Below are positions 7,203 to 23,419 of a stretch of 44,828 bases of DNA, piece by piece. Both the position numbers and the translations under genes were made by a program. Numbering within the stretch: position 1 is the stretch's first letter; every line of letters starts with the position of its first letter. Origin of the DNA: a virus; IMG/VR virus record IMGVR_UViG_3300048615_000030, positions 1 to 44,828 of that record; one strand, given 5' to 3'. Under the pieces are notes generated by a model, which was not told where the DNA came from, made no database searches, and saw only the letters and a program-made list of their open reading frames with translations.

Positions 7203-8177
7203 TCATTCGACCGGAGCACCAACATCAAAGATCAGCGAACCAGCCTCCGAACCGACGACGGTTATTTGAGACTCCAACGGTGGGACGGAATCCTCCCGAA
7301 ACTCGAGGTACTCGTTCGGAGTGAACCCGAGCGCAGCAGCCACCAGTTCGACGGACTTCTTCTCACCCTCCGCTTTCGCAATCGCCGCATCCCGATCCCC
7401 GTCTGCACGTTCACGGACAGCCTGCGCCTCAGCAACAGCCACTTGGACGAGCCGTGCCGCCTCTGCCGCCTTCTGGTCCGCAATGATCTTTGCCTCAACG
7501 CTCTGAATGAAAGCGGGTGCGAAAACTGCGTCCTTGACGTTGACCGATTCGACAACAATCCCGTATTCAGCCAGACGGACCGTCAGCGCCTTGTGGACGG
7601 CTTCTGCGAGTGCGGCACGGTTCTGAGCGAAGTCGATCGCAGCGAACTGGCCGACCTCCTGCGTGACCAGTTGCAGGACCGACGGGGCGACGACCGTAGC
7701 CTGATAGTTCAACCCGACCGACTGGTACAACTCAGCAGCCTCACCAGGCTCCACATGCGTGATAACCGCGACCGGGACGGTCACCTCCTGCAGGTCGAGA
7801 GACTGCGGGTAGACCTCAACCTCGTAGACCTGAGAGCGCACGTTGACCATTCGGGCTGACTGCGCCCACGGGATCACAAACGACAACCCCTCGCCCCGTT
7901 CGACGGGGGAGACACCACCGGACACGCTGTAAATCGCCGCCCTGTGACCTGGAGGGGTAATCACCAGTGCTGGAAGGATGACGACTGCGGCTATCACACC
8001 GGCGAGCGCACGCCGTTTCGCACCAGCAGCGAGAGTCCGTCGTCCCTTACGTGTGACCCCGTCGGTTTCCGTGGGTTCACGGTGGGAGCCTTTAAATAAG
8101 ACCACCAGCACCCCGATTAGTGCGGCGACATAGAGAGCAGGCTGAACGAGAATTTCAAAGCCGTAGGACTGGAGCAT
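7203..8177 (-). CDS. SPFH / Band 7 (prohibitin, HflK/C-like) membrane protein.
   Basis: N-terminal hydrophobic segments are followed by GHRAAIYSVSGGV...GEGLSFVIPW...DLQEVTV...IVVESVNVKDAVFAPAFIQSVEAKIIADQKAAEA... and an Ala/Glu-rich coiled coil, as in prohibitins. Confidence 0.75.
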   Translation of the reverse strand: MLQSYGFEILVQPALYVAALIGVLVVLFKGSHREPTETDGVTRKGRRTLAAGAKRRALAGVIAAVVILPALVITPPGHRAAIYSVSGGVSPVERGEGLSFVIPWAQSARMVNVRSQVYEVEVYPQSLDLQEVTVPVAVITHVEPGEAAELYQSVGLNYQATVVAPSVLQLVTQEVGQFAAIDFAQNRAALAEAVHKALTVRLAEYGIVVESVNVKDAVFAPAFIQSVEAKIIADQKAAEAARLVQVAVAEAQAVRERADGDRDAAIAKAEGEKKSVELVAAALGFTPNEYLEFREDSVPPLESQITVVGSEAGSLIFDVGAPVE

Positions 8178-8551: not shown

Positions 8552-9057
8552 TCCTGGTCTCCTGTCGTAGTGGGTGGTGCTTCGTCGTCTCTGTCGAATC
8601 CTTCACGAGTGCCTGTCCGGGAGTAGTCGGGAGGGGCGATAATCCCGTCTCCGACCGCCACCGGCCGCGGGTAGGCATCACTCCACGCGTAAGTGATCCC
8701 GCCGTCCTTGACCAGCCACAATTGGTCGCGGTCGAAAATGCCTACGCAGTCGTTGGTCGACCCGTCGTCCCAACCGCCCGCCACGATTCCCTGGCATCCC
8801 CACCGGACACTGTCAGCAATCGACGGTGACTCGTTGTCATATGTGCTGGACGCGATACACGCGATGACTTCGGGATCGTCGAACTCAAACCCGTTGTTGA
8901 TACCGTGAAGACCGGCGCAGTAGTTCTCGGCCTGGGTGAGCGCTAGGGGCCGCAGGTTGTCGTCGAACAGCCGCCAAAAGTTGACCGGCCAAAACACGGC
9001 TATCCCACCACCCACCACCAGGAGCACTGAGAGAGCGAAGGCTGCTAGGCGTTTCAT
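8548..9057 (-). CDS. Signal-anchored or secreted Cys-containing protein.
   Basis: N-terminal MKRLAAFALSVLLVVGGGIAVFW, then four Cys residues and an acidic C-terminus. 4-nt overlaps on both sides. Confidence 0.55.
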   Translation of the reverse strand: MKRLAAFALSVLLVVGGGIAVFWPVNFWRLFDDNLRPLALTQAENYCAGLHGINNGFEFDDPEVIACIASSTYDNESPSIADSVRWGCQGIVAGGWDDGSTNDCVGIFDRDQLWLVKDGGITYAWSDAYPRPVAVGDGIIAPPDYSRTGTREGFDRDDEAPPTTTGDQE

Positions 9058-11813
9058 GCTGCCTCCATTCCCGCGAGCAGATCGTGGATTTCGACGCCGT
9101 CGACAGTGGACTGGACGTCGAGTAGAGCTGCTACCGCTTCGATCTGGTCGACCCGGTCAGACAGGAACAGGTCGGTCTCGTCGTAGAGACGTTGGAGGAG
9201 CCGGTTGACCGCGTCCTTCTGCTCGTCGGGTAGTTGATCGAACGGCAGTTTCGACACGGACAAGTACTCGTCCATCGCGAACCGGGCGACCATCCCAGCG
9301 GCCTGTTCGGTTGCCTTCTCCAAGTCCGACGACGGACCGGTCGACAGGTCCCCTTCGAAGAAGTGCCGTTCGGCCCATACTGAGGCGAGCGCCACTCGGA
9401 TGTCCGCTTCGATCTCAGACCGAGGCCGGGTGTGTCGTTCCTCAATCGGCGCTGACGACACCACACCCAGGTTCCGGTCTCGCATGACAATCGACGCATA
9501 CTGGATTTGGCTGCGCTGCCGGAAATGGTGTGCGACGACAGCATGCGATGCTTCGTGGAGGCAGACCCGACGGTGGTCGTCCTCGACTGTCTGACGGCCC
9601 CGGTCCTCTCCCATCCGCTTCCAAATCAGAGCTTCCCGGATGTCCTTCGCTGTGACTGTCGTTCGCTCTTCCCTGATCGTGGTGAGCAGCGCCTCATTCA
9701 CAATGTCCTTGATGGAGGCGCCGGTCGCTCCAGGGTTCTCCTTCGCCAGGGTTTGAATCTCCTGGTCGGTCACGTTGTGGTCGTCGAGTTTGGCGAGATA
9801 CCCGCGGAGGGTTTCGGCGATCCCGTCAGCGTTAGGCCGACCCACTTTGATATGCCGGTCGTACCGGCCCGGCCGCAACAATGCCGGGTCGAGGTCGTCG
9901 GCCCGGTTCGTCGCTCCCACGTGGAGAATCCGATAGTGGGGCGGAGGGACTGGTTCGAATCCGATCAGGACGCGGATCTTGTTGTACAGGCCGCGGGGTT
10001 TCGCCAGGCCGGACATTTCCGACAAGACCATCTGCAGTGCACCCGACCCGACACCACCGCCGGTTATCACCATCTCGTCTGACAAGCCGACCAACCGGCC
10101 GATAGTCGACAGGACAACCCGTGCGGCCTGTTCGAGAACCCCACCACCACGGGAGCCGAGAGCGTCTATCTCGTCGAAGAAGCAGTTGTGTGTTACGAAG
10201 CCATCGGCTACGAATGTCCTGGTCGACGTTTGGATGGAAACAATCGGGCCGTAGCCGACGGGTTCAATGGCCTCCACCGTCGCCCAAGAGTTGTTGGGCA
10301 GACGAGGTGGGTTGTCACCAGAAAAGACAGCGTGATATTGCTCCAATAGCCGCTGCGGGCGCACCATGCCGAGAAGCCGAAGCGACATCGGTAGGTTCGT
10401 CAGTTCATAGGTGTGTAGGTCACTGGTCGCGAGCCCGTGGGCCCCGGCCTTCCGCAGATACAACGAATATCCGAACCCTCGCCTGTCCAGTTCCTGACCG
10501 ATGCGCTGTTCGACCGGACCAACGTTTTGACTGATGCCGACGTTGAGCCCACGACCAACACCGCGAAAGTCTCGGCCGGTGATGTGCCCCTCGCCGTCGT
10601 ACATGCCAGCAAGCCATGAGTCGCCGTCCTCCGACTCCCAGGGATCGGCAAGCCACTTGATGTGGTCGCCTGGATTGAGCAGTAATGCGGGGCGCCAGAC
10701 GAGGCCGCCGTGGCGCTTTGGCGTTCCCAGCGGGTAGTCCCTTGCGAGAAACGGGTGTTCGCCGTTGACGACGATGCTTCCGCGGTCCGTGACCAGCCGA
10801 TACCGCTGGTCGGTCCGATGCTCTACTGCTTCAACAACCCCGAGCCTGGTCCGCCGCCCTCCGTGTTCGCGTTTCCCCTTCTCGTCAACACCGAAGATGC
10901 CATCCTCCGGCTGCAATGTGTCGGCCCGTACCCAACGAAGGTCATCGGTTAGTACGAGGGTTTCCGGGGCGACACAAACAACCCCGCCATGCTTCACCGA
11001 CAGTTTCCGCAAATGCCGGTAGAGCATTTTCACTTTCATGATCGGAACGCCGACGAACATGTTCGTGAACGATTCCGGCCCGACCGACACGAACGGCTTC
11101 CCGGTCTCCCCGGCCAACGCCTCGGCTAGGAGGCTCTTGCCAGTGCCCGGAGGTCCGACGAGAAGGAGACCGCCAGGCATGTACCCGCCGCGCTTCTCGA
11201 CCACTTCAGGGTTTTCGAGGAGGAACAGGTTCTCCCTCATACGTGCGACGGCCTTGTCCTGGCCGTACACGTCCGAGAACCGAGTGCGGATCGACGCCGG
11301 GTGGATGACCTGGTAGAGGTCCATCCGGGCGAGCACCCACATCATGAGGAACAGTCCTGCGAACCCCATCGCAATGTTGAGTGCCATGAACAGGATGGTC
11401 TGGAAGTTCTGAACGACGAGCGCTGGAATGGCTGTAGCGCATCCGATCGTGCCGGTGCACTTGTCGGTGGCACCGTCGATGAGATAGCCGAGAGCGACCG
11501 TCCAGAAGGCGTAGCGGACTATCCGGCCGATCCGATAACGGGAGTAGTCCGAGAAGCGACCTTTGCGTTTCTCCCACCGGGCTCGAAGGCGGTTGGTGGT
11601 CGCGTAGAAGTGGGTTGACTGTTCTTCTCCGTAACGGACGAACTCTTTCGCCACGTACAAGACGACGAGACCCCAAGTGATCTTCCCGACAGGGGATTGG
11701 AGGAACGGTGATGGCTGGCCGCGTTCGGCGATGAACGTGTAGACGAGCAGATAGGAGATGACACGGATGCGTTCGGTCCAATGGACGGGTGGGCGCAGGC
11801 GAATCTTGCTCAT
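9054..11813 (-). CDS. FtsH-like membrane AAA+ ATPase / M41 zinc metalloprotease, interrupted by an intein.
   Basis: The N-terminus has hydrophobic helices. The Walker A motif is GPPGTGKS. The Walker B motif VV|CFFDEIDALG is split by a 264-aa insert. Further FtsH-like stretches are ATNRADDLDPALLRPGRYDRHI, HEASHAVVAHH (HExxH) and a downstream AERHFF...STGPSSDLEKAT. Confidence 0.8.
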   Translation of the reverse strand: MSKIRLRPPVHWTERIRVISYLLVYTFIAERGQPSPFLQSPVGKITWGLVVLYVAKEFVRYGEEQSTHFYATTNRLRARWEKRKGRFSDYSRYRIGRIVRYAFWTVALGYLIDGATDKCTGTIGCATAIPALVVQNFQTILFMALNIAMGFAGLFLMMWVLARMDLYQVIHPASIRTRFSDVYGQDKAVARMRENLFLLENPEVVEKRGGYMPGGLLLVGPPGTGKSLLAEALAGETGKPFVSVGPESFTNMFVGVPIMKVKMLYRHLRKLSVKHGGVVCVAPETLVLTDDLRWVRADTLQPEDGIFGVDEKGKREHGGRRTRLGVVEAVEHRTDQRYRLVTDRGSIVVNGEHPFLARDYPLGTPKRHGGLVWRPALLLNPGDHIKWLADPWESEDGDSWLAGMYDGEGHITGRDFRGVGRGLNVGISQNVGPVEQRIGQELDRRGFGYSLYLRKAGAHGLATSDLHTYELTNLPMSLRLLGMVRPQRLLEQYHAVFSGDNPPRLPNNSWATVEAIEPVGYGPIVSIQTSTRTFVADGFVTHNCFFDEIDALGSRGGGVLEQAARVVLSTIGRLVGLSDEMVITGGGVGSGALQMVLSEMSGLAKPRGLYNKIRVLIGFEPVPPPHYRILHVGATNRADDLDPALLRPGRYDRHIKVGRPNADGIAETLRGYLAKLDDHNVTDQEIQTLAKENPGATGASIKDIVNEALLTTIREERTTVTAKDIREALIWKRMGEDRGRQTVEDDHRRVCLHEASHAVVAHHFRQRSQIQYASIVMRDRNLGVVSSAPIEERHTRPRSEIEADIRVALASVWAERHFFEGDLSTGPSSDLEKATEQAAGMVARFAMDEYLSVSKLPFDQLPDEQKDAVNRLLQRLYDETDLFLSDRVDQIEAVAALLDVQSTVDGVEIHDLLAGMEAA
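10185..10976 (-). mobile_element. Intein (264 aa) inserted immediately before the Walker B motif of the FtsH-like gene.
   Basis: It begins CVAPETLVLTD (Cys1) and has an internal GEHPF (block B His). WLAGMYDGEGH is LAGLIDADG-like. It ends FVADGFVTHN and is followed by the +1 Cys of CFFDEID. Removing it restores a contiguous AAA+ module. Confidence 0.8.
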
Positions 11814-17395: not shown

Positions 17396-17542
17396 CTCAT
17401 GTGGAGATTACACACGCCGTGCCAAATGTCAAGTACCTATCTTGTGGAGATTCCCCACAACCGGTTGACAAGTGGCACAACCGGTGTGTATCTTCCCCAT
17501 ATGGCCGGAAGTTGGGCAACCATTGGGAGAAAGGGCAAGGCT
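17396..17542. promoter_or_regulatory. Genetic-switch region with divergent promoters and operator-like repeats.
   Basis: Rightward promoter candidate: TTGACA (17465..17470), 18 nt, TATCTT (17489..17494). Leftward promoter candidate: TTGACA (complement of 17427..17432), 16 nt, TAATCT (complement of 17405..17410). Repeats: TGTGGAGATT at 17400..17409 and 17443..17452, and CACAACCGGT at 17456..17465 and 17476..17485. The first CACAACCGGT copy contains the palindrome CAACCGGTTG. Confidence 0.6.
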
Positions 17543-17872
17543 ATGACAACGGAATTCGTTGCAACAAGGGCAGAAGTTCAGTCCGTGAGAGTCGGCATGG
17601 CCGCATTGGGGGCAGGACTACGCAACGCGAAGGATCTTCACCGGGCGCTCCAAGCCAACGGAGCCACGATCCACTACGAGACCATTCGACGTCTCTGGTC
17701 TGGCGAGCGGAAAGAAGAACTGCCTTTCACTCTGATCGAACAGATCAGCGAGGCGACCGGGTTCAGCAGCGACTGGCTGGTGGGCAAGCCCGAAGCGGCG
17801 CTCCCTGACAAGGTGAACCGCGCAAAGGGCGTTTCGCGCAGTTCGTTTGCACTAGTCCCCCTCGCCGCCTAG
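17543..17872 (+). CDS. CI-like HTH repressor ending in an ssrA-like ...ALVPLAA.
   Basis: HTH-like LRNAKDLHRALQANGATIHYETIRRLWSGER. The GGGAGA/AAGG SD region lies before ATG 17543. On the plus strand, upstream of int and divergent from the Cro-like gene. Confidence 0.65.
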   Translation: MTTEFVATRAEVQSVRVGMAALGAGLRNAKDLHRALQANGATIHYETIRRLWSGERKEELPFTLIEQISEATGFSSDWLVGKPEAALPDKVNRAKGVSRSSFALVPLAA

Positions 17873-17922: not shown

Positions 17923-18738
17923 ATGAGAGAGTCGGAATACGCCGACTATCTCATTGGTGAGAGGCTAGGACCGCGGACCCGGCAACGGTATCTACGGTGG
18001 GTACGGGATGCGGATGAGTGGTTGACACAACAAGAAGCCACCCTCGCCGCCACTACAGCCACCCTAATCGCAGCCTGGGCCGAACAGCGAGTACCCAACT
18101 CCCACGCATGCCGCGGACAAGCCGCCGCCGCACTCAAACACTACTGGCACATGATCGACCATCCCCGACCGCCAGTCCGCGCGATCCCCGTCCCACCCGC
18201 ACCCGAAATGGTCTGCCGTGCCATCACCGACCAACAGATCGACTATGTCATCAAAGTCGCCACAGGATGGTGGCCGAAAGGCACCGTCGTCCTAGTCGGC
18301 ATGACCCTCGCCCTCAGACGTTTCGAAATCGCGAAAATGGAGTGGTCACGGTTCGACCCCGACCTGACCTGGTATCGAGTTACCGGCAAGTATTCGAAGA
18401 CAGCAACACTTCCAGTCCACCGTCATCTCATCACCGAACTCGAGGGGCGTAACATAAATGGTACGCCTTGGGTGTTCCCCGGCAGGGTCGACGGACATAT
18501 CAACCCGGCGACAGTCGGCGCGTGGACAGCCGAAGTCGGACGAGCCGCCGGCGTACCACATCTCCTACCCCACGAGCTCAGACACACGACCCTTGCCGTC
18601 GCGAATGATGAGACCGGCGACCTCCGATCCGTCATGGCATTTGCGCGTCATTCGAAGCCGTCCACGACGGTCGGATATACTCGCACCACCGCGACCAAAC
18701 TGCGGGCCGTATCGGATGCTCTAGGCTATCTCGACTGA
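17923..18738 (+). CDS. int: Tyrosine integrase/recombinase (short, XerC/D-like).
   Basis: Catalytic pattern: ALRRFEI (Arg), HELRHT (H-x-x-R), ARHSK (His), VGYTR (Tyr). Confidence 0.8.
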   Translation: MRESEYADYLIGERLGPRTRQRYLRWVRDADEWLTQQEATLAATTATLIAAWAEQRVPNSHACRGQAAAALKHYWHMIDHPRPPVRAIPVPPAPEMVCRAITDQQIDYVIKVATGWWPKGTVVLVGMTLALRRFEIAKMEWSRFDPDLTWYRVTGKYSKTATLPVHRHLITELEGRNINGTPWVFPGRVDGHINPATVGAWTAEVGRAAGVPHLLPHELRHTTLAVANDETGDLRSVMAFARHSKPSTTVGYTRTTATKLRAVSDALGYLD

Positions 18739-21392: not shown

Positions 21393-21535
21393 CGGTCATG
21401 CTCCGGGCAGTAGAACTTGCCGGTATCTCCGAGTGGGACCATCGGATGGGGGGTCATGTTCCGACAGGTCTCATAGTTGTGGCGGGCACGACGGGTTTCA
21501 GCGTCCGTACAGTCGCAGACAGTGCAAGTCATCAT
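21389..21535 (-). CDS. Small zinc-ribbon ORF (48 aa).
   Basis: Hand translation: MMTCTVCDCTDAETRRARHNYETCRNMTPHPMVPLGDTGKFYCPEHDR. ATGA overlaps at both ends. Confidence 0.35.
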   Translation of the reverse strand: MMTCTVCDCTDAETRRARHNYETCRNMTPHPMVPLGDTGKFYCPEHDR

Positions 21536-22305
21536 CCGTCCAACCGTTTCGCCAGTTCGTCAGCCACCGCAGCAGCAACACCCGAGGAGACCGCCCCGGC
21601 GATAGTCTCGATCTGAGCCGACGTGAAACCCTTCTCTGACGCTCTCACAGACCTGACACCCAGCCCGTACGTTTGGACGAGATAGTTCGCGACCGTCCGA
21701 GAAATCGGAGTGCCCGGAGTGGTGAACGACTCGTTGAACGACCGGGACATGAGTTCGTCGACCGTCAACTTCGCTATGTCTTGTTTCTCCTGTTCGGTGA
21801 GCGGCATGTTCTCCTCCTGCAAGTTGATGGACTGGTTGAGCGTGGAAATCTGCGAGTGGAGGTTCCGACCGGGACAAGACGTCGAAGCTCCCGACGCGTC
21901 CCGGTGGCCGCCGGTGAAACCTTCCCGCCACCAGCCCTCCGAATACCCGTGGCGGGCGAGTTCGACGATCGAACGCATGGCGGCAACCGTCGGCTGATCG
22001 TTGTCGTAGTTGCCCGTCAGGCAGACCGCATGGGAGACCGTGTTATGACCCGCCGTGTGTCCACCTGCTATCCCTGCTCCGCGTCCTTCGTAGATGGTGC
22101 CCTCGTGGTTGATCAGGAACGAGTAGGCGATGTCGTTCCACCCTCGAGTGTCCATGTGGAAGGTTTGGATCGCTCGAACGCGGGCTTCGTATCCGGTGGG
22201 TGATGCCGTGTGATGGAGCCACAGTTCCGGTGTGGGAGTGGTGATCTTCCGGGGGGTTGTCTTGGGAGGGCGAGCACCCCAAGAGGCGCGGGAAACGATC
22301 TGCAT
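21532..22305 (-). CDS. Endolysin: N-acetylmuramoyl-L-alanine amidase (PGRP / Amidase_2 type) plus a C-terminal domain.
   Basis: SRASWGARPP...LHHTAS...IQTFHMDTRGWNDIAYSFLI...IYEGRG...GHRD...TSCPG. Start set at ATG 22305, with AGAGGAG 8 nt upstream. Confidence 0.8.
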   Translation of the reverse strand: MQIVSRASWGARPPKTTPRKITTPTPELWLHHTASPTGYEARVRAIQTFHMDTRGWNDIAYSFLINHEGTIYEGRGAGIAGGHTAGHNTVSHAVCLTGNYDNDQPTVAAMRSIVELARHGYSEGWWREGFTGGHRDASGASTSCPGRNLHSQISTLNQSINLQEENMPLTEQEKQDIAKLTVDELMSRSFNESFTTPGTPISRTVANYLVQTYGLGVRSVRASEKGFTSAQIETIAGAVSSGVAAAVADELAKRLDG

Positions 22306-22319
22306 GGGAAACACTCCTC

Positions 22320-22348
22320 TAGACGGATGGTGGTAGTGCCGATACGGT
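22320..22348 (+). promoter_or_regulatory. Candidate plus-strand promoter giving a leaderless mRNA for ORF 22356..22679.
   Basis: TAGACG (22320..22325), 17 nt, TACGGT (22343..22348, of TANNNT type), then 7 nt to ATG 22356. Confidence 0.35.
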
Positions 22349-22355
22349 CGGACAC

Positions 22356-22679
22356 ATGCTTCCGATCCTGCTGCTTGTCCTCGTATTGGACTGTCAGACC
22401 GTCACCGTCGACCATGAGACGGGAACACCGCAGATCGTCGAATCGGTCGGTGTGAATCCGCGGTTAGGAGTGGAAGGCCATTACCTGGTCGTCACTGACG
22501 ATTATGAGGATGACGTTTCGGACGGGTGGAGTGTCGACGTTTCCGATCCGACGATTGAAACAGTGACGGTCTGCACGGACGGGTCGGTCGCGTTCGGACG
22601 TGAGCAGCCTGTGGAGACCATTGTCTTGTCCGGTCCGTTGGAAGTGTGGCGTCCCTGGTTCGGACACAATCCCGTCTAG
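22356..22679 (+). CDS. Plus-strand ORF with a hydrophobic N-terminus ending ...LVLDC; possible lysogeny-expressed moron or exclusion protein.
   Basis: 107-aa ORF with Asp/Val/Thr/Glu-rich composition like the real genes here and G/C-rich third codon positions. All minus-strand frames across this interval are Arg-rich or broken. It converges on the fibre gene, sharing the CTAG of both stop codons. Confidence 0.5.
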   Translation: MLPILLLVLVLDCQTVTVDHETGTPQIVESVGVNPRLGVEGHYLVVTDDYEDDVSDGWSVDVSDPTIETVTVCTDGSVAFGREQPVETIVLSGPLEVWRPWFGHNPV

Positions 22680-23419
22680 GCGGCTTCGTAAGTGGCAGAG
22701 AATCCGATCGTGTCGCCGGTCCCCCAGGTGAACGGCACCGTCGCTGTGATGGCGATATGTCGGACAGTGGTGGACACGTCGAGGGCTTCCAAGTTGAACC
22801 GTTGAGTCGTGTTGGCGATGATGACCGTTCCGGCACGACGGGCAACTCCGGCCTCGAACAAGGTAGCCGATCCGACATTTGTCGTGTTGTCACCGTAGGA
22901 GGCGTGGCAGGTGACGGGAAGGCTCACCGCCGGGCTGGTGCCGACAGCCGAACCCGACGATCCGAAAGTGAACAGGAATCGAGCGATGACGGTCGACCCG
23001 ATCTGCGTGTACCGGGCGACCACCGTCCCGTTACCTAGAGTGATATTGGTGAGAGTGGGAGACCAGGCTTGCCATACCAGCGCCGATTCGAGAGCGTATT
23101 GCGTATGCGGGTCGCCCGTTGTCAGATTCAGTAGAGACGCATGAGACAATGCTCCGGCGAGCGTTCCGACCGTCGCCGACTTTTTCACATACGACGCTGC
23201 CGAATCCTCCAACAGGATCTCATCCGCCGCGACCGGCACCGTCTTCAACGTGACCGCAGTAATCTCGTCGGCGACATCATCGTGGATCGCCGTATCGTCA
23301 ATATGCGCCAGGTCGATGATCTGCCGTTTGAAAATCTTGATGAACCGGGCGATCCCGGAACTGTCCTCACCGTCATGGGCATGAGCAGGCACGCTCTCAC
23401 GGCCGTCTCGGAAGGTCAC
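22676..23419 (-). CDS. Tail fibre / receptor-binding protein.
   Basis: Last structural gene. Contains the HAHDGEDSSGI and GDPHTQY motifs common in phage fibre proteins, followed by a Thr/Ser/Gly-rich C-terminal domain. Confidence 0.55.
   Translation of the reverse strand: MTFRDGRESVPAHAHDGEDSSGIARFIKIFKRQIIDLAHIDDTAIHDDVADEITAVTLKTVPVAADEILLEDSAASYVKKSATVGTLAGALSHASLLNLTTGDPHTQYALESALVWQAWSPTLTNITLGNGTVVARYTQIGSTVIARFLFTFGSSGSAVGTSPAVSLPVTCHASYGDNTTNVGSATLFEAGVARRAGTVIIANTTQRFNLEALDVSTTVRHIAITATVPFTWGTGDTIGFSATYEAA

What the first reader, a model, noticed from the sequence alone, without database searches (positions are those of the whole stretch)
22320..22679. Leaderless plus-strand ORF embedded antisense in the late operon, convergent on the fibre gene
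A 324-nt stretch lies between the receptor-binding fibre gene and the endolysin. No minus-strand frame across it looks coding. The plus strand carries a 107-aa ORF with gene-like composition and G/C-rich third positions.

A promoter-like TAGACG-17-TACGGT ends 7 nt before its ATG, which is the geometry of actinobacterial leaderless mRNAs.

The product starts MLPILLLVLVLDCQT..., which is signal- or lipobox-like, although Asp at -1 is atypical. The rest is acidic.

Only two other genes, the repressor and int, lie on the plus strand. This ORF is therefore a good candidate for a lysogen-expressed moron. One possibility is a surface exclusion protein that masks the receptor recognised by the adjacent fibre, by analogy with T5 Llp or TP-J34 Ltp.
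Basis: partly seen in the sequence, partly recalled or inferred. Interest (0 to 1): 0.65.

Follow-up and report, generated by a model that had tools for sequence, protein, structure and literature searches.

The report
Reverse-strand exported-protein gene beside phage lysin
The 107-codon plus-strand ORF is a real gene with its own promoter, sitting in a slot between the tail-fibre and lysin genes where related phages carry other reverse-strand genes. It encodes a member of an unnamed family of small exported phage proteins, which makes it an ordinary kind of accessory gene (a "moron") with no known function.

Summary
ORF 22356-22679 (+) lies in a 370-nt gap between the fibre gene (22676-23419, -) and the amidase endolysin (21532-22305, -).

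- **It is a real gene.** Its codon score beats all 125 non-gene ORFs of at least 90 aa. A 95%-identical copy (L051) gives dN/dS 0.27 in this frame only. Exhaustive search finds a rare, unannotated family of small phage-borne proteins. These have signal peptides, an all-beta core and two conserved Cys.
- **The slot is shared.** Relatives with homologous endolysins carry other reverse-strand cargo at the same place:
  - an RHH (ribbon-helix-helix) gene alone;
  - an RHH gene plus a 30%-identical family member with a canonical signal peptide;
  - an unrelated 148-aa secreted protein;
  - a DUF3152 protein with a lipobox-like N-terminus;
  - no reverse gene at all.
- **The promoter is conserved.** A -35/17/TANNNT promoter-like site sits at the same offset from the lysin start in three relatives. 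In this window it ends 7 nt before an ATG that has no Shine-Dalgarno sequence (chance about 0.001).
- **What is not supported.** The lipobox reading fails. The product's own leader is atypical: 11 aa, no charge, no AxA cleavage site.
- **What is untested.** Expression in lysogens, export and receptor masking remain inference.

Verdict: a new member of a known kind (phage moron for an envelope-directed protein), of moderate interest.

The parts
22320..22325 (+). -35-like hexamer TAGACG. It directly abuts the endolysin ribosome-binding site on the other strand.
   Evidence: Read. It is conserved in L051. Equivalent hexamers sit at nearly the same offset from the lysin start in L129 (TAGACA, same position 31) and L128 (TTGACT, position 28).
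22343..22348 (+). -10-like hexamer TACGGT (TANNNT type), 17 nt after the -35 and 7 nt before the ATG.
   Evidence: In M. tuberculosis the TANNNT motif is centred 7-12 bp upstream of transcription start sites (PMC3898074).
22356..22679 (+). ORF107 coding sequence (107 aa), with no Shine-Dalgarno sequence. It is probably translated from a leaderless or 0-2-nt-leader mRNA.
22356..22391 (+). Short uncharged Leu-rich leader MLPILLLVLVLD. It occupies the position of the signal peptide in homologues.
   Evidence: P0015 has a similar 13-aa leader. Of the other twelve members tabulated, eleven have n-h-c signal peptides and P0004 has an uncharged 19-aa leader ending ALA. The L128 homologue has a canonical signal peptide.
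22392..22601 (+). Conserved family core (residues 13-82). The model shows seven beta strands. Conserved Cys13 is at 22392-22394 and Cys73 at 22572-22574.
   Evidence: Alignments. AlphaFold2 model (core block means 66-90 pLDDT).
22647..22683 (.). 37-nt junction block: the last 10 codons of ORF107, the CTAG double stop, and the last two fibre codons. It is 36/37 identical in L128 and in L051, although its flanks in L128 are divergent or unrelated.
22676..22679 (.). CTAG, where the stop codons of the convergent ORF107 and fibre genes overlap by 4 nt. No terminator lies between the two genes.
   Evidence: The same 4-nt convergent overlap occurs in L128 and L134.
22676..23419 (-). Last tail gene, a putative fibre / receptor-binding protein (247 aa).
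   Evidence: Position in the tail module. N-terminal ~30 aa shared with the L128 fibre. C-terminal domain shared with more than 100 contigs. No family hit.
21532..22305 (-). Amidase_2 endolysin (257 aa from ATG 22305). Its SD GAGGAG lies at 22319-22314, back to back with the ORF107 promoter.

Best explanation
ORF107 is a genuine accessory ('moron') gene. It sits in a reverse-strand cargo slot that a group of temperate, probably actinobacterial, siphophages keep between the last tail-fibre gene and the endolysin.

**How it most likely works**
1. It is transcribed from its own SigA/sigma-70-type promoter (TAGACG-17-TACGGT), which lies back to back with the endolysin ribosome-binding site.
2. The mRNA has essentially no leader, so the gene is expressed independently of the late operon. 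Expression is probably in lysogens and perhaps early in infection.
3. The product belongs to an unnamed family of small phage-borne proteins. These are exported through an N-terminal hydrophobic leader and fold into an acidic all-beta domain of about 70 residues, with two conserved Cys that could form a disulfide.
4. I commit to an envelope-level role. The most likely is superinfection exclusion or receptor masking, which protects the lysogen or infected cell, or keeps progeny from binding debris.

**Shown here**
- The gene is real.
- It belongs to the family.
- Cargo in the slot varies between related phages.
- The promoter geometry is conserved.

**Inferred**
- The time of expression.
- Export of this short-leader version.
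- The exclusion function (about 0.3 on its own).

The confidence of 0.55 is for the whole chain. The shown part alone is about 0.8.
For: **The gene is real**
- Its codon score is above every non-gene ORF of at least 90 aa.
- L051 carries a 95.7% nt / 95% aa copy with 9 of 14 differences at codon position 3 (p = 0.017) and dN/dS 0.27. Getting 7 or more synonymous changes out of 14 has p = 0.037. Other frames have stops or a ratio of 0.57-1.8.

**It belongs to a family**
- Exhaustive phmmer finds small proteins of 102-208 aa aligned over residues 2-101, for example P0003 at E = 2.7e-14. A word-indexed profile search adds more.
- Cys13 and Cys73 are conserved in all but one aligned member (P0009 lacks both). 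Other conserved positions include Gly41, S59xD61 and Asp75-Gly76.
- Most members have canonical signal peptides.
- All contexts recovered are phage-like.

**The slot holds variable cargo.** Relatives were found through the endolysin.

| Locus | Lysin identity | Reverse-strand cargo |
|---|---|---|
| L127 | 93% | RHH gene only |
| L128 | 85% | RHH gene plus a family member (hmmsearch 3.2e-13, hhalign 97%) with signal peptide MRRALVAAALVVALPLTAGA/ETC; convergent on a different fibre with the same 4-nt stop overlap |
| L129-132 | 71% | 148-aa secreted protein |
| L134 | 65% | DUF3152 protein with a lipobox-like N-terminus |
| L133 | 75% | none |

**The promoter is conserved**
- The L051 homology block starts at about 22316-22320, just 5' of the -35 box.
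- The -35/17/TANNNT pattern has a chance of about 0.0009 of ending 6-8 nt before a given ATG, and it recurs at the same offset in L128 and L129.
- L127 has TTGACA-17-AAGAAT-6-ATG, read by eye.
- No SD is present. Only two other genes in the window, int and a 67-aa HTH gene in the immunity region, share this TANNNT-plus-ATG geometry.

**Precedents**
- Small exclusion lipoproteins are encoded directly next to receptor-binding genes: Llp beside pb5, and lipoprotein genes downstream of gpJ (PMC9586334).
- A prophage-expressed membrane protein blocks DNA injection in actinophage Charlie (PMC6426606).
Against: - There are no transcript data, and the host is unknown.
- The actinobacterial assignment rests on weak evidence: 25-31% hits to Streptomyces phage proteins, Glutamicibacter phage hits for the L051 neighbour, and WhiB on a homologue's contig.
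- ORF107's leader is only 11 residues, with no basic n-region and no AxA site. Export or cleavage may fail, or the protein may stay anchored.
- No terminator follows the gene.
- The cassette's GC content does not differ from the genome's.
- There is no fold or family clue to function: Foldseek best E is about 0.2, and Pfam, PHROGs, PADLOC and PDB return nothing significant (best: PADLOC Cas56g, E = 0.011).
- The family is not linked to this fibre type: 0 of 110 loci carry it. Most members sit co-oriented in early or lysis operons, so 'lysogen-expressed' is not a family trait.
- The dN/dS estimate rests on only 14 substitutions, 8 of them clustered at 22597-22622.
Confidence: 0.55

Rival explanations
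1. Lysis-associated accessory protein. The exported domain would act with the endolysin at the wall, for example to modulate, target or time lysis.
For: - The gene is adjacent to an endolysin gene in the window and L128. In L051 its neighbour is a different gene that sits in the lysin position.
- P0015 directly follows a 40%-identical homologue of this window's endolysin on the same strand, with overlapping stop and start codons.
- P0003 lies 1.7 kb upstream of an Amidase_2+SLH lysin.
Against: - In this window it lies on the opposite strand with its own promoter.
- In relatives with the same lysis cassette the slot holds unrelated cargo or none, so the gene is dispensable for lysis.
- Other members follow a replication initiator or an Erf recombinase in early operons.
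Confidence: 0.12
2. Lysogenic-conversion factor that benefits the host rather than excluding phages. An acidic secreted or anchored beta domain could serve adhesion, cation binding or envelope remodelling.
For: - It has an independent promoter inside a temperate phage.
- It belongs to an exported protein family.
- It is very acidic, pI 4.05.
- Cargo in the same slot includes a DUF3152 HExxH protein, which looks like an enzyme rather than a receptor blocker.
Against: - No similarity to any adhesin, binding or enzyme family was found.
- Many family members sit in lytic-cycle operons, which fits phage-directed functions better.
Confidence: 0.2
3. Decaying remnant. A deletion removed an upstream RHH gene and the 5' part of the signal sequence, as judged against L128. 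This left an ORF that is no longer exported or functional.
For: - L128 has an RHH gene plus a family member with a full signal peptide in the same slot.
- The window's promoter region aligns loosely with the L128 promoter and RHH start.
- The leader is short, uncharged and has no cleavage site.
- No terminator follows the gene.
Against: - The ORF is intact in two lineages with dN/dS 0.27 and gene-like codon usage.
- P0015, only 36% identical and in another phage, independently has a similar 13-aa Leu-rich leader. This argues that the short leader is functional.
Confidence: 0.1
4. Mainly regulatory. Plus-strand transcription from this promoter would run antisense into the fibre gene and dampen leaky late expression, with the ORF incidental.
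For: The genes are convergent with overlapping stops and no terminator between them.
Against: - The protein sequence is conserved across a family at 30-50% identity.
- The substitution pattern is frame-specific.
- Relatives place quite different coding cargo in the slot.
Confidence: 0.04

Closest known systems
T5 Llp and T1/phi80 Cor superinfection-exclusion lipoproteins
   Same: They are small exported proteins encoded immediately next to the receptor-binding tail gene. They act on the phage's own receptor (PMC9586334).
   Different: - Those are lipoproteins of Gram-negative hosts. ORF107 has no lipobox (Asp at -1).
- No hit in the PHROGs phage-family library and no fold match in PDB or BFVD. 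Llp and Cor were not compared directly.
- ORF107 has a different fold class prediction.
- The ORF107 family is not consistently linked to a fibre gene.
- Its function is untested.
Lambda morons bor and lom (own knowledge, not checked here)
   Same: They are independently promoted genes embedded in or beside the late region. bor lies next to the lysis genes in the opposite orientation. They are expressed from the prophage and encode envelope proteins.
   Different: - There is no homology.
- Bor is a lipoprotein and Lom an outer-membrane beta-barrel.
- ORF107 has no terminator of its own and no compositional difference from its genome.
P22 immI / sieA region next to the tailspike gene (own knowledge, not checked here)
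   Same: In P22, ribbon-helix-helix regulators (Arc, Mnt) and an exclusion gene are embedded in the late region near the tail gene. The L127 and L128 slots carry an RHH gene, and in L128 it lies upstream of, and overlaps, the ORF107 homologue.
   Different: - The window itself has no RHH gene.
- SieA is an inner-membrane protein unrelated to this family.
Prophage-expressed defence genes of actinobacteriophages (cluster N phages, Sbash, CarolAnn, Charlie)
   Same: These are temperate actinophages whose lysogenically expressed genes, often with their own promoters, exclude other phages. Some are membrane proteins (PMC6426606).
   Different: - Those genes lie near the immunity or integration cassette, not at the tail-lysis junction.
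- No family member turned up in the 50,697-phage collection.
S. thermophilus TP-J34 Ltp (own knowledge, not checked here)
   Same: It is a small exported prophage protein that blocks DNA entry.
   Different: - Ltp is a lipoprotein encoded in the lysogeny module.
- It has helical repeat domains, not an all-beta core.

Membership tests
Unnamed ORF107-like family of small phage-borne exported proteins (defined here) | Significant sequence similarity over the ~70-aa core, with the two Cys conserved in all but one member plus Gly41, SxD and DG | tested here: met
   phmmer E = 2.7e-14 to P0003, and 5.9e-8 or weaker for seven more small proteins. Alignments. The profile re-finds the window ORF at 7e-42 and the L128 ORF at 3e-13.
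Unnamed ORF107-like family of small phage-borne exported proteins (defined here) | N-terminal Sec-type signal peptide (basic n-region, h-region, AxA site 1-3 residues before the first Cys) | tested here: inconclusive
   Present in most members. ORF107 has only an 11-aa uncharged Leu-rich stretch with no AxA, similar to P0015. No SignalP-type predictor was available.
Bacterial lipoprotein (lipobox) | [LVI][ASTVI][GAS]C at the end of the signal peptide | tested here: not met
   The sequence is V-L-D-C, with Asp at -1. In homologues the Cys follows an SPase-I-type AxA site by 1-3 residues.
Phage moron (independent transcription unit inserted in a late region) | Own promoter | tested here: met
   In silico only. 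TAGACG-17-TACGGT has a chance of about 0.0009 of lying at this distance from the ATG. It is conserved in L051, and equivalent elements sit at the same offset in L128 and L129. No transcript data.
Phage moron (independent transcription unit inserted in a late region) | Presence/absence or replacement polymorphism among otherwise related phages | tested here: met
   L127, L128, L129-132, L133 and L134 carry different cargo or none between homologous tail and lysin genes.
Phage moron (independent transcription unit inserted in a late region) | Own terminator and deviant base composition | tested here: not met
   No terminator-like hairpin was found. GC is about 0.58 against a genome value of about 0.60, with the same codon-position pattern.
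Leaderless mRNA (actinobacterial type) | TANNNT -10 placed so that transcription starts at or within a few nt of the start codon, with no Shine-Dalgarno sequence | tested here: met
   The hexamer occupies -13 to -8 relative to A22356, or -11 to -6 relative to A22354. No SD is present. Reference geometry from PMC3898074.
Leaderless mRNA (actinobacterial type) | Mapped 5' end at the start codon | not testable with these tools
   This needs 5'-RACE or TSS-seq.
Llp/Cor-type receptor-blocking exclusion proteins | Small exported protein encoded adjacent to the receptor-binding gene | tested here: met
   It is convergent on the last tail gene with a 4-nt overlap. However, the family is absent from 110 loci with the same fibre domain.
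Llp/Cor-type receptor-blocking exclusion proteins | Sequence or fold relationship to Llp or Cor | tested here: not met
   No PHROG, Pfam or PDB sequence hit and no Foldseek match in PDB or BFVD. Llp and Cor were not compared directly.
Llp/Cor-type receptor-blocking exclusion proteins | Blocks adsorption or DNA entry of the cognate phage | not testable with these tools
   This needs an experiment.

The most novel reading that the evidence does not exclude
The ORF107 family would be a previously unrecognised class of exported, non-lipoprotein receptor-masking or exclusion proteins of phages of Gram-positive or actinobacterial hosts.

In this phage group, such proteins would be swapped together with the distal fibre domain as a specificity module. 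The swap would occur through a conserved 37-nt junction (22647-22683) at the convergent gene ends.

ORF107's weak, order-specific resemblance to the shaft repeat of giant tail fibres would then hint at a fibre-derived decoy.
Probability: 0.15. Interest if true: 0.65.

Novelty: new member of a known kind. Interest (0 to 1): 0.4.

Why it matters
**What it adds**
- It adds a protein family to the catalogue of phage accessory genes aimed at the cell envelope. The family is rare: about 20 sequences among 1.8 billion cluster representatives. It has no Pfam, PHROG, PADLOC or PDB counterpart.
- It defines a reverse-strand cargo slot at the tail-lysis junction of an uncultured group of temperate phages. 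Different exported proteins (this family, a 148-aa secreted protein, a DUF3152 protein) and an RHH regulator alternate in that slot.

**How it could be used**
- Such slots are convenient places to mine for exclusion, defence or conversion functions.
- The conserved back-to-back promoter arrangement gives a testable case of leaderless expression from inside a late operon.

It does not open a new kind of biology unless the exclusion or specificity-module reading is demonstrated.

Tried and rejected
- **Isolated phages.** Megablast and tblastn of the region and of the ORF against 50,697 phage records gave no match.
- **Peptide-pattern scans with the ORF.**
  - Three IMG/VR loci (L052-L054) matched. 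They lie antisense inside a 1,050-aa gene of unrelated AT-rich phages, so they are chance matches.
  - Nothing was found in 185,579 species genomes or in JGI metagenomes.
- **Known families and folds.** Pfam, PHROGs, PADLOC and the PDB-sequence search gave nothing significant for the ORF or for family members (best: PADLOC Cas56g at E = 0.011, and Pfam HCMV_UL116 at 0.24 for one member). Foldseek of the AlphaFold2 model gave only insignificant Ig-like V-domain matches (E at least 0.2, TM about 0.25).
- **Fibre linkage.** 110 loci sharing the fibre C-domain hold no family member.
- **Giant tail-fibre hits** (P0002, P0006, P0007; Peptidase_S74 and BppL_N).
  - The scores come from many repeats of 10.7 bits or less each.
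  - Shuffled queries give nothing.
  - The family profile does not hit P0002 or P0006 and barely touches P0007 (E = 0.66), even with filters off.
  - I kept this as a weak lead, not as homology.
- **Cassette boundary repeat.** The direct repeat TCTAG[A/G]CGG at both cassette ends is no better than the 11 other chance repeats in the same 500 nt.
- **Terminators and RNA.** The terminator scan, RNA fold and Rfam found nothing.
- **L129 protein.** The 148-aa L129 protein matches only the leader of the family profile, so it is not a member.
- **More distant lysin relatives.** L137-L140 were too GC-rich and noisy to read the slot.
- **Junction sequence.** It is not present in IMG/VR.

Full report
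**1. The observation**

The window is a ~60% GC temperate tailed-phage genome read in reverse. Late genes run on the minus strand from 44826 down to the endolysin. Early genes continue on the minus strand. Only an integrase (17923-18738, Pfam Phage_integrase), a repressor-like ORF (17399-17872) and the ORF in question lie on the plus strand.

The ORF runs from ATG 22356 to TAG 22679 (107 aa). It sits between two minus-strand genes:
- the last tail gene (22676-23419);
- an Amidase_2 endolysin.

The endolysin most likely starts at ATG 22305, preceded by GAGGAG. Homologues of 250-257 aa support this start.

An in-frame TAG at 22320 and the lack of any alternative start codon fix the N-terminus as MLPILLLVLVLDC. 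TAGACG-17-TACGGT ends 7 nt before the ATG, as reported.

**2. It is a real gene**

- GC by codon position (0.66/0.39/0.68) matches the phage's genes.
- The codon log-odds (0.184 per codon) exceeds all 125 non-gene ORFs of at least 90 aa in the window.
- The other five frames have stops and low scores.
- One near-identical copy exists on a 956-bp ENA contig, L051. Over the ORF there are 14 substitutions:
  - 9 are at third codon positions (p = 0.017);
  - dN/dS is 0.27 in the plus frame, and 0.57-1.8 in the other frames, which are interrupted by stops.

**3. It belongs to an unnamed family of exported phage proteins**

An exhaustive phmmer search of 1.84 billion cluster representatives returned 17 proteins at E of 0.001 or better. 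Eight of them are small proteins (102-208 aa) that align over most of ORF107. A word-indexed profile search added four more.

Shared features:
- a hydrophobic N-terminal leader;
- a Cys 1-3 residues after an AxA-type site;
- the motifs CQTVTI.HE.GTP, G(H)F, S.DVSDP and C.DG(S/T)V.

Cys13 and Cys73 are conserved in all but one member (P0009 lacks both).

AlphaFold2 with nine sequences predicts a seven-strand all-beta core for residues 13-82, with block-mean pLDDT of 66-90, and a disordered tail. Neither Foldseek (PDB, BFVD) nor Pfam, PHROGs, PADLOC or PDB-sequence searches find a significant relative.

Every genomic context recovered is phage-like:

| Locus | Context of the family member |
|---|---|
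| L063 | after a replication initiator |
| L058/L059 | after an Erf recombinase |
| L055 | inside an 82-kb WhiB-bearing phage contig |
| L124 | 1.7 kb upstream of an Amidase_2+SLH lysin |
| L060-L062 | directly after a 40%-identical homologue of this window's endolysin, same strand, overlapping stop/start |

The family was not found in 185,579 species genomes, in IMG/VR, or in isolated phages.

**4. The slot**

I used the endolysin to find closer relatives of the window phage.

| Locus | Lysin identity | Content between last tail gene and lysin |
|---|---|---|
| L127 | 93% | reverse-strand 44-46-aa RHH (ribbon-helix-helix) gene only |
| L128 | 85% | reverse-strand RHH gene overlapping a 118-aa family member |
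| L129-L132 | 71% (lysin found on 23 contigs) | reverse-strand unrelated 148-aa protein with a canonical signal peptide |
| L134 | 65% | reverse-strand DUF3152 HExxH protein with a lipobox-like N-terminus, again with a 4-nt convergent overlap |
| L133 | 75% | no reverse gene |

Details for L128:
- The upstream tail protein is 51% identical to the window's.
- The family member scores 3e-13 by hmmsearch and 97% by hhalign, and is 30% identical to ORF107.
- It carries the canonical signal peptide MRRALVAAALVVALPLTAGA/ETC.
- It is convergent on a different fibre, with the same 4-nt stop overlap.

In L051 the left neighbour of ORF107 is not the amidase. It is a gene whose Glutamicibacter-phage homologue sits between a tail needle gene and a holin, which is the lysin position.

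The tail-lysis junction of this phage group is thus a variable slot for reverse-strand cargo. Most of that cargo encodes exported proteins.

**5. Boundaries and promoter**

Identity between the window and L051 changes in steps:
- It jumps from background to more than 95% at about 22316-22320, immediately 5' of the -35 box.
- It stays near 97% through the ORF.
- It falls to about 85% and then 60-70% inside the fibre gene. There dS is 0.92, against 0.10 in the ORF.

The promoter-like pattern is rare in the window: 27 instances in 89.6 kb. This gives about 0.0009 for one ending 6-8 nt before a given ATG.

Equivalent elements occur at nearly the same offset from the lysin start:
- L129: TAGACA-17-TAACGT.
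- L128: TTGACT-17-TAAGCT, 7 nt before an ATG of the RHH gene.
- L127: TTGACA-17-AAGAAT-6-ATG, read by eye.

The hexamer position fits the TANNNT -10 of actinobacterial promoters (PMC3898074). There is no Shine-Dalgarno sequence. Within the window the same TANNNT-plus-ATG geometry occurs only at int and at the 67-aa HTH gene of the immunity region.

No terminator or Rfam element is present.

**6. What is and is not supported in the interpretation**

Well supported in silico:
- a moron with its own promoter;
- leaderless geometry.

Partly supported:
- 'Signal-like' holds through homology, but ORF107's own leader is atypical. It has 11 residues, no basic n-region and no AxA site. P0015 shares this short form, which argues that the form is tolerated rather than degenerate.

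Not supported:
- 'Lipobox-like'.

Untested:
- Receptor masking. The fibre domain occurs in 110 loci without this family. The family occurs away from fibres. On the other hand, fibre type and cargo type change together in the few relatives seen, and there are good precedents for exclusion genes next to receptor-binding genes (PMC9586334).
- Lysogen expression.

**7. Mechanism and rivals**

I rate these as very likely (about 0.8): the gene is real, it is independently promoted, and it is exchangeable cargo encoding an envelope-directed protein. An exclusion or receptor-masking role is the single most likely function (about 0.3).

| Explanation | Confidence |
|---|---|
| Host-benefit conversion factor | 0.2 |
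| Lysis accessory | 0.12 |
| Decaying remnant | 0.1 |
| Antisense regulator | 0.04 |

**8. Novelty**

The kind of element is known: a phage moron or lysogenic-conversion gene for an exported protein at a module boundary. The protein family and the slot in this phage group are undescribed as far as these libraries show.

Interest is moderate (0.4). A demonstrated fibre-linked exclusion module for a Gram-positive or actinobacterial host would raise it.

Noticed in passing
window 9054-11813 (-) and 7203-8177 (-): The early arm encodes a 919-aa FtsH-like protein (AAA plus Peptidase_M41) and, two genes downstream, an SPFH/Band-7 protein. A phage-borne FtsH and HflK/C-like pair is unusual for a temperate phage, given the role of host FtsH-HflKC in lambda's lysis-lysogeny decision (own knowledge).
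   Followed up: no
window 22647-22683; L128 4846-4882 (-); L051 635-671: A 37-nt block is 36/37 identical in L128. It covers the last 10 codons of ORF107 (WRPWFGHNPV), the CTAG double stop and the last two fibre codons. In L128 the rest of the ORF is only 30% identical at the protein level and the fibre distal part is unrelated. It looks like a recombination junction for swapping cargo and/or fibre tips.
   Followed up: partly
window 17923 (+) and 17395 (-): The integrase and the 67-aa HTH gene of the immunity region also have a TANNNT hexamer 8-9 nt upstream of an ATG with no Shine-Dalgarno sequence. This suggests leaderless expression of the lysogeny genes as well.
   Followed up: no
window 21532-22305 (-): The source gene call for the endolysin is 207 aa (P0022), starting at an internal Met. 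Homologues of 250-257 aa and a GAGGAG 8 nt upstream support ATG 22305 (257 aa).
   Followed up: partly
L129 4775-5000 (reverse strand), likewise L130-L132: The promoter-like site is at the same position (TAGACA-17-TAACGT). It is followed by a ~190-nt leader with a GC-rich inverted repeat (GGGCCCGCCG...CGGCGGGCCC) before the 148-aa secreted-protein gene. This may be a regulatory leader or a terminator for the late strand.
   Followed up: no
L127 7428-7590: In the relative that has only the RHH gene, an ORF overlapping the RHH stop begins with a Leu-rich leader, (V)IILLLLVALLGG. A hairpin AGGCCCC...GGGGCCT lies just 3' of the fibre stop. This may be the stump of a lost cargo gene plus a terminator.
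   Followed up: no
ORF107 residues ~56-97 (window 22521-22646): ORF107 on its own gives order-specific but individually weak matches to the repeated 'E.v.V..DG.VgiG...P.E.L' shaft motif of giant tail-fibre proteins. Those proteins carry the Peptidase_S74 chaperone or BppL_N domains. The family profile does not reproduce the matches, and shuffled queries give none.
   Followed up: partly
L057 2948-3420: Family member P0021 appears frameshifted. The family's C-terminal motif (YPDTLTLYCLLPNKLVIVQ) is readable just downstream in another frame. This is either an assembly error or a pseudogene.
   Followed up: no
L062 80-562: About 480 nt with no convincing ORF lie upstream of the endolysin that is followed by family member P0015, next to a divergently oriented gene.
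   Followed up: no
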